A DNA stretch of 45,837 nucleotides, taken from NCBI GenBank assembly GCA_964016885.1, contig CAXHJY010000764.1, positions 1 through 45,837 on the forward strand, written 5' to 3'. Positions 32,636-45,837 of the stretch are shown one piece after another (position 1 is the first letter of the stretch; each line of letters starts with the position of its first letter). Position numbers and translations under genes: made by a program. Source of the DNA: Eledone cirrhosa (taxonomy: Eukaryota). The notes under the pieces were generated by a model that saw only the letters and a list, made by a program, of their open reading frames with translations, searched no databases and had not been told where the DNA came from.

Positions 32636-33046
32636 TATTGATAAATCTGTTTAAACACACACACACATTGACACACACAACCACACGCACACACACACTG
32701 ACACACACAAACACGCACACGTACACACACAATTACAATAACACACACACGCACACACACACACGTACACACGTACACACACACACACGCACACGCACAC
32801 GCACACGCACACGCACGCACACACACACGTACACACACTCACACACACGTACACACACTCACACACACGTACACACACACACGTACACACACACACACGT
32901 ACACACACACACACGTACGCACACACACACACGCACACACACGTACACACACACACACACACACACGTACACACACTCCTCCTGTGCAGTCCTAATGTTT
33001 TTTTCTTGACATGAATAAAGAAACTATTATTCTTATTAAAATTATT

Positions 33047-33208
33047 AAATCGACCTCAGTACATTACTCGTACTTTATTTTATCGACCCCGTTTCATCCT
33101 TTCGGGGTCGATAAAATAAAGTACCAGTAATGCACTGGTGTCAATTTAATTTACTTTACCCCTCTCCCCAAATTGCTGGCCTTGAGCTTAAATCAGAAAC
33201 AATTATTA
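33047..33208. mobile_element. Fold-back SINE fragment
   Basis: Arms 33058-33091 and 33103-33137 around the loop TTTCATCCTTT; the right arm continues to the SINE tail. Confidence 0.8.
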
Positions 33209-34675: not shown

Positions 34676-34877
34676 AGGAAAACGTATGACCCCGACGGCA
34701 GAGCTCAAGCCGTTTCGACGGCTATTTCTGGACTCTGAGTCCAGAAATAACCGTCGAAACGGCTTGAGCTCTGCCGTCGGGGTCATACTTTTTCCTTTTT
34801 TCCCACTCTGCTACCCTAAGTATTGAGTACTCTGGTGCGTTATGGTCCATCTGGTTCCTTACCACAATTCCTTCGTT
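34676..34877 (+). mobile_element. Hairpin element (family I) copy 1: palindrome centred on HHR stem II
   Basis: Near-perfect palindrome 34676-34796 centred at 34736; right arm GAAA-CGGC ttgagctct GCCG-TC-GGGGTCA; ~80-bp unique tail running into (TA)n; homologous to 45277-45476. Confidence 0.85.
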
Positions 34878-45276: not shown

Positions 45277-45474
45277 ATAGGAACGAGTAGGACCCCGACG
45301 GCTGAGCTCAAGCCGTTTCGACGGCTAATTCTGGACTAGTCCAGAGTTAGCAGTCCAAACGGCTTGAGCTCAGCCGTAGGGGTCCTACTCGTTCCTATTA
45401 CCCACACTACTACCCTAAGTATTGAGTACTTTGGTGCATTATGGTCCATCTGGTTCCTTACCACATTTCCTTCG

Positions 45475-45476
<2 letters not shown>
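45277..45476 (+). mobile_element. Hairpin element (family I) copy 2
   Basis: Palindrome 45277-45398 centred on GGACT|AGTCC; same tail as 34797-34877; (TA)n flanks. Confidence 0.85.
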
Positions 45477-45595: not shown

Positions 45596-45837
45596 ATTAA
45601 AAAAATAATGAATAAAACAATGAAACAGTTCCTTATATTAAACAAAAAAAGTTCATTATTTAACGATCGTTTCTAGGACATATATGTGTTAGAATTGGCA
45701 TGCATATTCAACAGATCTATGTACAAAATTATACAAAATTATACAAACTATCAAATCTAATATACATACCAACACATACATATACCGTCTCTCTGAAGAC
45801 GGTATATGTATGTGTTGGTATGTATATTAGATTTGAT
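45596..45837. mobile_element. Family C PLE-like insert: long-stem-II HHR on the minus strand with a fold-back at the window end
   Basis: Perfect 41-bp arms 45750-45790 / 45797-45837 around CTCTGA; CTGAAGA at 45793-45799 (+); minus-strand stem II pairings TATGTATGTGTT/AACACATATATG and TTGGTATGTATATT/AATATGCATGCCAA; GAAACGATCGTT at 45662-45673. Confidence 0.75.

What the first reader, a model, noticed from the sequence alone, without database searches (positions are those of the whole stretch)
34676..34877. Palindrome folds back exactly at the ribozyme stem II hairpin, twice independently
Seen: this copy and 45277-45476 share the same axis (GGACTCTGAGTCC / GGACTAGTCC). The right arm holds the 3' half of an HHR (GAAA-CGGC-loop-GCCG-UC), but where CUGANGA should be there is the reverse complement of that 3' half. 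Within each copy the arms share private variants (GAGCTCT/GGTCAT here, GAGCTCA/GGTCCT in copy 2). Inference: after RT copies stem II, the cDNA snaps back on that hairpin and self-primes the second strand, so the ribozyme fold itself sets the inversion point. Arm-to-arm gene conversion is the alternative explanation.
Basis: partly seen in the sequence, partly recalled or inferred. Interest (0 to 1): 0.85.

Follow-up and report, generated by a model that had tools for sequence, protein, structure and literature searches.

The report
Fold-back stub of a Penelope retrotransposon
The palindrome is real and is the truncated, head-to-head end of a very abundant Penelope-like jumping gene; its fold point is not set by the ribozyme hairpin, and likely marks where the element's RNA starts, which would explain how such inverted ends form.

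Summary
Both palindromes exist, but they are two of tens of thousands of copies (33,710 exact tail matches). The "private" variants are subfamily markers (2,931 and 6,617 exact arms). Long copies encode a Hydra-clade Penelope-like RT plus GIY-YIG protein. The 200-bp unit is the known "inverted, tail-less copy plus tailed copy" insertion, here in (TA)n. The parent has a hammerhead, but with a U3-A8 core (UUGANAA, not CUGANGA) and a ~55-nt covarying stem II. The fold point lies in stem II's 3' strand, yet the hairpin does not set it: 1 of 135 junctions keeps the hairpin loop, both arms are truncated independently, some do not overlap, and the stop follows a TTAGT motif when the hairpin apex moves. 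In two other families the axis lies upstream of the whole ribozyme. Gene conversion and a single ancestral palindrome are refuted. Best reading (inferred, 0.6): two cDNAs, primed at two internal UAU sites, run to the RNA 5' end and are joined head-to-head. No RNA data were available. The scan met a similar Penelope fold-back unit in another genome.

The parts
34676..34734 (-). Copy 1 inverted, tail-less arm: element positions -41 to +18 (+1 = first G after the predicted GUC cut); its outer end meets the (TA)n/(GA)n flank at the CCTAT site
   Evidence: 96.7% to the 3' end of long copies L113, L114
34735..34737 (.). Copy 1 junction insert CTG; not in the parent, which has TTT before AGTCC
34738..34796 (+). 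Copy 1 direct arm, starting at A-41 of the TTAGTC motif (inferred RNA 5' end): 3' strand of stem II, GAAA (34756-34759), stem III with palindromic loop, predicted cut after C34778, 3' strand of stem I
34797..34877 (+). Copy 1 tail (~80 nt), on one arm only; in long copies it runs on into the 5' UTR before the ORF
45277..45337 (-). Copy 2 inverted, tail-less arm, subfamily B
45338..45398 (+). Copy 2 direct arm from A-41; zero-loop joint with a shared TA; ribozyme core letters mutated
45399..45476 (+). Copy 2 tail, followed by (TA)n

Best explanation
The 200-bp unit is a truncated insertion of a Hydra-clade Penelope-like retrotransposon into (TA)n, likely made when two cDNAs, primed at two internal UAU sites, ran to the RNA's 5' end and were joined head-to-head. 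SHOWN: parent element with RT and GIY-YIG frames; two fixed outer ends, CCTAT (+19) and CGTTAT (tail end), both ending in TAT beside (TA)n; a sharp inner stop at -41 to -45 on both arms; joints that vary copy by copy with microhomology, blunt joins or short inserts; arms of the same subfamily. INFERRED: the endonuclease cuts both strands of (TA)n; each 3' end primes reverse transcription on the same RNA, or on sister RNAs from one source; transcription starts at the A of TTAGT(C/T), so the cDNAs are strong-stop-like products of about 60 and 140 nt; end-joining repair fuses them. The ribozyme is a bystander for the main axis, though a minor cluster of ends at its predicted cut suggests that it sometimes cleaves.
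For: Parent. Inner stop: 52 of 93 tail-anchored copies start in -34..-45 (P about 1e-27 against a uniform null). About 68 of 100 listed arms that contain A-41 end within a few bases of it (by eye). The stop occurs without any inverted partner (L183, L268, L120, L136) and with poly-A stutter (L120, L150, L159). Independent arms: the tail-less arm reaches further in than the tailed arm in 38 of 66 pairs, and 8 of 66 pairs do not or barely overlap. Long tail-less copies carry short tailed inverted partners (L086, L088, L114). 16 of 50 loops are perfect zero-loop palindromes (by eye). About 4 of 130 pairs carry multi-letter different haplotypes (L060, L241, L291, L055). The stop tracks the motif, not the hairpin: in old subfamily C, 27 of 34 listed arms stop at -36..-46, where TTAGTT is an unpaired bulge and the apex is near -55. 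Two other families stop at ACAGTT and CATATG upstream of their cores (6 of 8 and 10 of 10 truncated arms, by eye). An extra G before A-41, as expected from a copied cap, appears in 10 of 13 unexplained non-T cases (by eye). 8 of 40 copies whose tail runs into the 5' UTR begin at the same stop. Precedent: two internal RT starts and extension of both strands in vitro (PMC11167929); TSS inside the pLTR (PMC2377424, PMC8557442).
Against: No RNA evidence for a start at A-41. Same-subfamily arms (71 of 74) fit snap-back equally well. One-sided deletion after insertion could also give non-overlapping arms. About 10 copies have the joint GGACT|GAAATAG, and several have short fold-back inserts, so cDNA ends do fold back locally at times. 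The extra-G count is small, by eye, and confounded by a TCAGT subfamily and by fold-back G; non-parent G was as common as C on the cDNA strand (about 10 to 8). A TATA-like word about 30 nt upstream in subfamilies A and B is absent from C. In D. virilis Penelope the start lies upstream of the ribozyme (PMC2377424, PMC4209133), not inside stem II. 17 of 40 5'-UTR-joined copies extend far upstream and 15 are shorter than the stop. Automatic junction calls include a few misplacements (L187, L207, L175, L177) and missed partners; the '-48' rows were corrected to -41.
Confidence: 0.6

Rival explanations
1. One reading: one cDNA copies stem II, snaps back on the hairpin and self-primes the second arm; the palindrome tip is later trimmed by repair.
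For: Subfamily A does have a 7-bp apical hairpin whose 3' strand holds the stop. Arms are concordant in 71 of 74 pairs. Short fold-back inserts exist. Self-priming was proposed in PMC3846280.
Against: 1 of 135 junctions keeps the apical loop, and that one is not the simple product. The apical helix shows no compensatory change and is the least conserved. The stop does not move with the apex in subfamily C. The tail-less arm is the longer one in 38 of 66 pairs; pairs do not overlap in 8. There are solo stops, zero-loop joints, and axes upstream of the ribozyme in two other families.
Confidence: 0.13
2. Two cDNAs are joined as in the best model, but the stop is a reverse-transcriptase stall or RNA processing site at the U-run or in stem II, not a transcription start.
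For: Poly-A stutter at the U-run (L120, L150, L159). The site lies inside a conserved structure. No RNA data.
Against: A structural stall should fall at the base of the stem (about -26), not 15 nt inside it. The site is paired in A and unpaired in C. The U-run is broken in the TCAGT subfamily and preceded by C or G in C-type copies. Extra-G signal.
Confidence: 0.17
3. A short palindromic master copy is itself transcribed and amplified as a non-autonomous unit, so the axis is inherited.
For: Some joints recur (GGACT|GAAATAG about 10 times; AAATTT loop 6 of 50). Short copies retain both priming sites.
Against: 61 distinct joints in 66 pairs and 28 loops in 50 loci. The same stop appears in every subfamily and at the head of long elements (L269, L308).
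Confidence: 0.07
4. One ancestral palindrome, or arm-to-arm gene conversion, keeps the arms alike.
For: Arms within a copy are 93-97% alike.
Against: Left arms do not form their own group: arms match by subfamily within copies (71 of 74; shuffled mean 18, maximum 32 in 2,000 shuffles). Post-insertion changes sit in one arm only (149) and rarely in both (6, of which 3 are a subfamily letter).
Confidence: 0.03

Closest known systems
Hydra clade of endonuclease-positive Penelope-like elements (Craig et al. 2021, PMC8557442), including Hydra-1_Obim and Penelope-13_HM
   Same: RT then C-terminal GIY-YIG, DKT motif, CxCX5C linker, (TA)n targets, hammerhead near the 3' end, 5'-truncated inverted copy at the 5' end.
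   Different: Element about 3.1 kb rather than <3 kb; tail about 80 nt rather than 30-40; RWR in place of RWK; core UUGANAA and ~55-nt stem II, whereas every Hydra ribozyme in that paper's File S2 has a ctga core and a short stem II; the 3' sequence differs from Hydra-1_Obim as listed there.
Penelope inverted pLTR plus tail structure and self-priming proposal (Arkhipova et al. 2013, PMC3846280)
   Same: Head-to-head palindrome at the inverted junction; tail on one arm only; an Inr-like word noted in a pLTR.
   Different: That paper infers self-priming on an antisense template from few copies; here many junctions favour two independently truncated cDNAs with a fixed stop.
Anolis Poseidon PAc in vitro reaction (Frangieh et al. 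2024, PMC11167929)
   Same: AT-rich cuts on both strands; two internal RT start sites that define the tail.
   Different: Different clade; there the start sites are not homologous to the target, whereas here both end in UAU matching (TA)n; the inverted junction was not studied there.
U3-A8 minimal hammerheads of Schistosoma Cercyon PLEs (Cervera and de la Pena 2014, PMC4209133)
   Same: U3-A8 core covariation, type I layout, palindromic loop 3, opposite-strand pairs of motifs.
   Different: Here stem III is 5 bp with a 9-nt loop and stem II is far longer with internal loops.
L1 twin priming (recalled, not read)
   Same: A second target end primes internally and gives an inverted 5' segment joined by microhomology.
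   Different: In L1 the two parts do not overlap and the second site varies; here the second site is fixed and the parts usually overlap, which makes a palindrome.

Membership tests
Hydra-clade Penelope-like element | Single ORF with RT followed by C-terminal GIY-YIG endonuclease | tested here: met
   RT motifs (FDIESYY, GSMGA, YRDD) and IYQC...AYIG in long copies, all frames broken. Pfam GIY-YIG only E=0.012, below the cutoff, and no Pfam RT hit. Atlas look-alikes 0.95-0.98, with GIY-YIG on 22-28% of members in two clusters.
Hydra-clade Penelope-like element | DKT motif and CxCX5C linker | tested here: met
   HSDKTG in L114; CNCPDRSTC in L112, L115, L116 (definition)
Hydra-clade Penelope-like element | RWK motif | tested here: inconclusive
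   L114 reads LRWRT at that region; one copy examined
Hydra-clade Penelope-like element | Insertion into (TA)n | tested here: met
   nearly all copies
Hydra-clade Penelope-like element | Absence of the CCHH motif; placement in an RT phylogeny | not tested
   no reference proteins aligned, no tree built
Penelope-like insertion unit | Partial tandems (pLTR), inverted 5' copy, tail on one end continuous with the ORF-side sequence | tested here: met
Type I hammerhead, canonical | CUGANGA core | tested here: not met
   0 of 72 long regions
Type I hammerhead, U3-A8 variant | UUGANAA core, GAAA, UH site, stems I-III | tested here: met
   49 of 56 parsed cores read TTGANAA with N7 = A, G, T or C; 3 read C3 with A8; 16 not parsed. 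96% of cells paired; 3 stem II pairs change on both sides between clades, essentially one clade split. Rfam found no hammerhead.
Type I hammerhead, U3-A8 variant | Self-cleavage | not testable with these tools
   Indirect only: 8 of 34 truncated arms in a -15..+3 window start at -1/+1 (by eye; P = 0.0004-0.03; G-run microhomology may inflate this)
Non-LTR retrozyme | Tandem head-to-tail units each with a whole hammerhead | tested here: not met
   units are head-to-head and hold half a ribozyme (definition)

The most novel reading that the evidence does not exclude
Penelope-like inverted ends are twin strong-stop cDNAs: each family's fold-back axis is its capped transcription start, so palindrome axes map PLE promoters from DNA alone. 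In this family the start lies inside stem II of a U3-A8 hammerhead, so the 5' repeat transcribes only half a ribozyme while the 3' repeat carries a whole, cleaving one.
Probability: 0.4. Interest if true: 0.62.

Novelty: new member of a known kind. Interest (0 to 1): 0.4.

Why it matters
But how Penelope-like elements make their inverted ends is stated as open (PMC8557442, PMC11167929), and this family gives tens of thousands of independent junctions that separate the models and yield a direct prediction: a capped 5' end at one nucleotide. If true, fold-back axes become a DNA-only map of PLE promoters. The parent ribozyme (U3-A8 core, long stem II) was missed by Rfam here and would be missed by CUGANGA searches.

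Tried and rejected
Rfam scans of the window, the element and six long-copy loci gave no hammerhead, only miRNA-like chance hits and one tRNA. The CTGANGA pattern search gave 38 hits, none of the 30 inspected being the predicted parent. Pfam gave no RT hit. Sequencing runs: no RNA holder listed; this is not evidence either way, and no reads were laid. The apical hairpin as cause of the stop was considered and rejected. MITE, Helitron-like or other DNA-transposon readings were dropped once the RT and GIY-YIG parent was found. An assembly artefact was rejected: arms diverge by 3-7% and follow subfamilies. One search's and 46's junction maps had cross-matching and de-duplication faults and were replaced. 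One search's pattern by accident excluded intact arms, so it shows only truncated or mutated ones. No paper supporting the cap-G reading was found; it rests on recall. Searches for a published link between PLE palindrome axes and transcription starts or twin priming found none; most subscription papers are not in the library.

Full report
Observation. Both palindromes are at the stated places: 60-bp arms with 2 mismatches around CTG, and 61-bp arms with 4 mismatches and no loop, each followed by an 80-nt tail and set in (TA)n. They are not a pair of rarities. The tail motif has 33,710 exact matches in the 3.0-Gb genome, and 6 copies lay in 200 kb of arbitrary sequence. The arm types of copy 1 and copy 2 have 2,931 and 6,617 exact matches, so the 'private' variants mark subfamilies.

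Parent. Sequence upstream of one arm led to long copies. They encode broken RT and GIY-YIG frames with DKT and CxCX5C motifs, which define the Hydra clade. Pfam support is weak (GIY-YIG E=0.012, below cutoff; no RT hit) and no tree was built. The tail continues into the 5' UTR. Of 40 such copies, 17 are partial tandems, 8 begin at the same inner stop as the window's unit (L269 is the window's palindrome attached to an element body) and 15 are shorter. The unit is thus the known inverted tail-less copy plus tailed copy (PMC3846280, PMC8557442).

Ribozyme. Numbering +1 from the G after the predicted GUC cut, the parent has stem I (ACCCC with GGGGU), a core UUGANAA, a ~55-nt stem II, GAAA and a 5-bp stem III with a palindromic loop. 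None of 72 long regions has CUGANGA at the core; 49 of 56 parsed cores read TTGANAA with position 7 free, 3 have C3 with A8, and 16 were not parsed. U3-A8 is a described PLE variant (PMC4209133). In 16 copies, 96% of cells pair and three lower stem II pairs change on both sides between clades; this is about one clade split, so it is modest evidence. The apical helix shows no such change. Rfam does not detect the motif. Cleavage is untested; 8 of 34 truncated arms in the -15..+3 window start at -1/+1 (by eye).

Axis. In 93 copies chosen only by the tail, 52 begin in -34..-45, and inverted partners stop in the same place. A of AGTCC is -41. Joints differ: 61 kinds in 66 pairs, 33 with overlap, 11 blunt, 22 with inserts; 28 loops in 50 loci, 16 of them perfect zero-loop palindromes (by eye). 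So the axis is a hot spot, rebuilt at each insertion.

One ancestor or conversion. Of 130 arm pairs, 74 were scored after setting aside 28 from best-hit loci (22 same, 6 differing by one letter) and 28 with a rare haplotype. Arms match by subfamily in 71 of 74; the shuffled mean is 18. Variants occur in one arm 149 times and in both 6 times. Both alternatives fail.

Snap-back on stem II. The model predicts joints that keep the hairpin loop and a left arm contained in the right. One of 135 joints keeps the loop and it is not the simple product; the tail-less arm is the longer in 38 of 66 pairs, the tailed arm in 19; 8 pairs do not or barely overlap. Long tail-less copies have short tailed partners. 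The stop occurs with no partner and with poly-A stutter. In old subfamily C the apex is near -55 and TTAGTT is a bulge, yet 27 of 34 listed arms stop at -36..-46 (by eye; only arms reaching -33 are listed). Two other ribozyme-bearing families fold back at fixed sites about 40 and 65 nt upstream of CUGANGA (8 and 10 truncated arms). In favour of snap-back: concordant arms, about 10 GGACT|GAAATAG joints and short fold-back inserts, and the possibility that tips were trimmed after insertion.

Best mechanism. Both outer ends finish in TAT next to (TA)n. An Anolis PLE cuts and extends both strands and starts RT at two internal sites (PMC11167929). I infer two target-primed cDNAs that run to the template's end and are joined by end-joining. 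The conserved TTAGT/TCAGT resembles an initiator element (consensus recalled), PLE starts lie in the pLTR (PMC2377424, PMC8557442), and an unexplained G precedes A-41 in 10 of 13 cases, as a copied cap would give (recalled). That count is by eye and confounded; extra G and extra C on the cDNA strand were about equal. No RNA holder was listed, so the start site is untested. Confidence 0.6; stall 0.17; snap-back 0.13.

Literature seen. PMC3846280: main text. PMC11167929: main text. PMC4209133: results and discussion. PMC8557442: passages, sections 10 and 11, supplement part 2 with the Hydra table and HHR list. PMC2377424: passages and discussion. bioRxiv 10.64898/2026.07.22.740005: abstract, introduction and part of methods; its supplements were not seen. 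PMC2718515: one term search, nothing relevant. L1 twin priming, cap copying and the initiator consensus are recalled. I found no paper tying PLE palindrome axes to transcription starts. An earlier scan note on another genome reached the same class of answer.

Verdict. Real, and a new member of a known kind. The headline mechanism is mostly not supported, but a testable alternative bears on an open question. Interest 0.4.

Noticed in passing
window 2380-2500: Palindrome of another ribozyme-bearing repeat family (canonical CTGATGA about 65 nt past the axis); all 10 truncated arms seen start within CATATGTTG.
   Followed up: partly
window 45750-45837: Palindrome at the contig end whose axis abuts a CTGAAGA core; a third repeat family, with four non-palindromic relatives in fetched loci.
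   Followed up: partly
window 33044-33150: Imperfect palindrome of a very common short repeat (185 hits in fetched loci).
   Followed up: no
window 7804-7859: 28-bp-arm zero-loop palindrome beside (TA)n; one relative in L023.
   Followed up: no
window 27933-28319: Fragment of another Penelope-like endonuclease region, 32% identical to the parent protein (tblastn E=6e-19).
   Followed up: no
L045, L056, L077: Arms of this family joined directly to arms of other ribozyme-bearing families; in L045 this family's arm starts exactly at A-41. Possible cross-family template switching or nested insertion.
   Followed up: no
L173, L195, L262 and rows: Recurrent 27-nt deletion between the two GCCGTCG direct repeats, removing GAAA and stem III.
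   Followed up: no
G000:C1:18228113-18228635 and C1:26300619-26302361: A tandem repeat at about 183-bp spacing with a CAGTT...TAGCTGTCGAAAC unit; possibly a retrozyme-like array.
   Followed up: no
L160, L191, L275, L284: A subfamily with C at core position 3 and A at position 8, a mismatch that would be expected to weaken the ribozyme.
   Followed up: no
L114:2052-3244, L116:8813-9430, L117:7529-9112: Further, divergent Hydra-like Penelope frames near the fetched copies.
   Followed up: no
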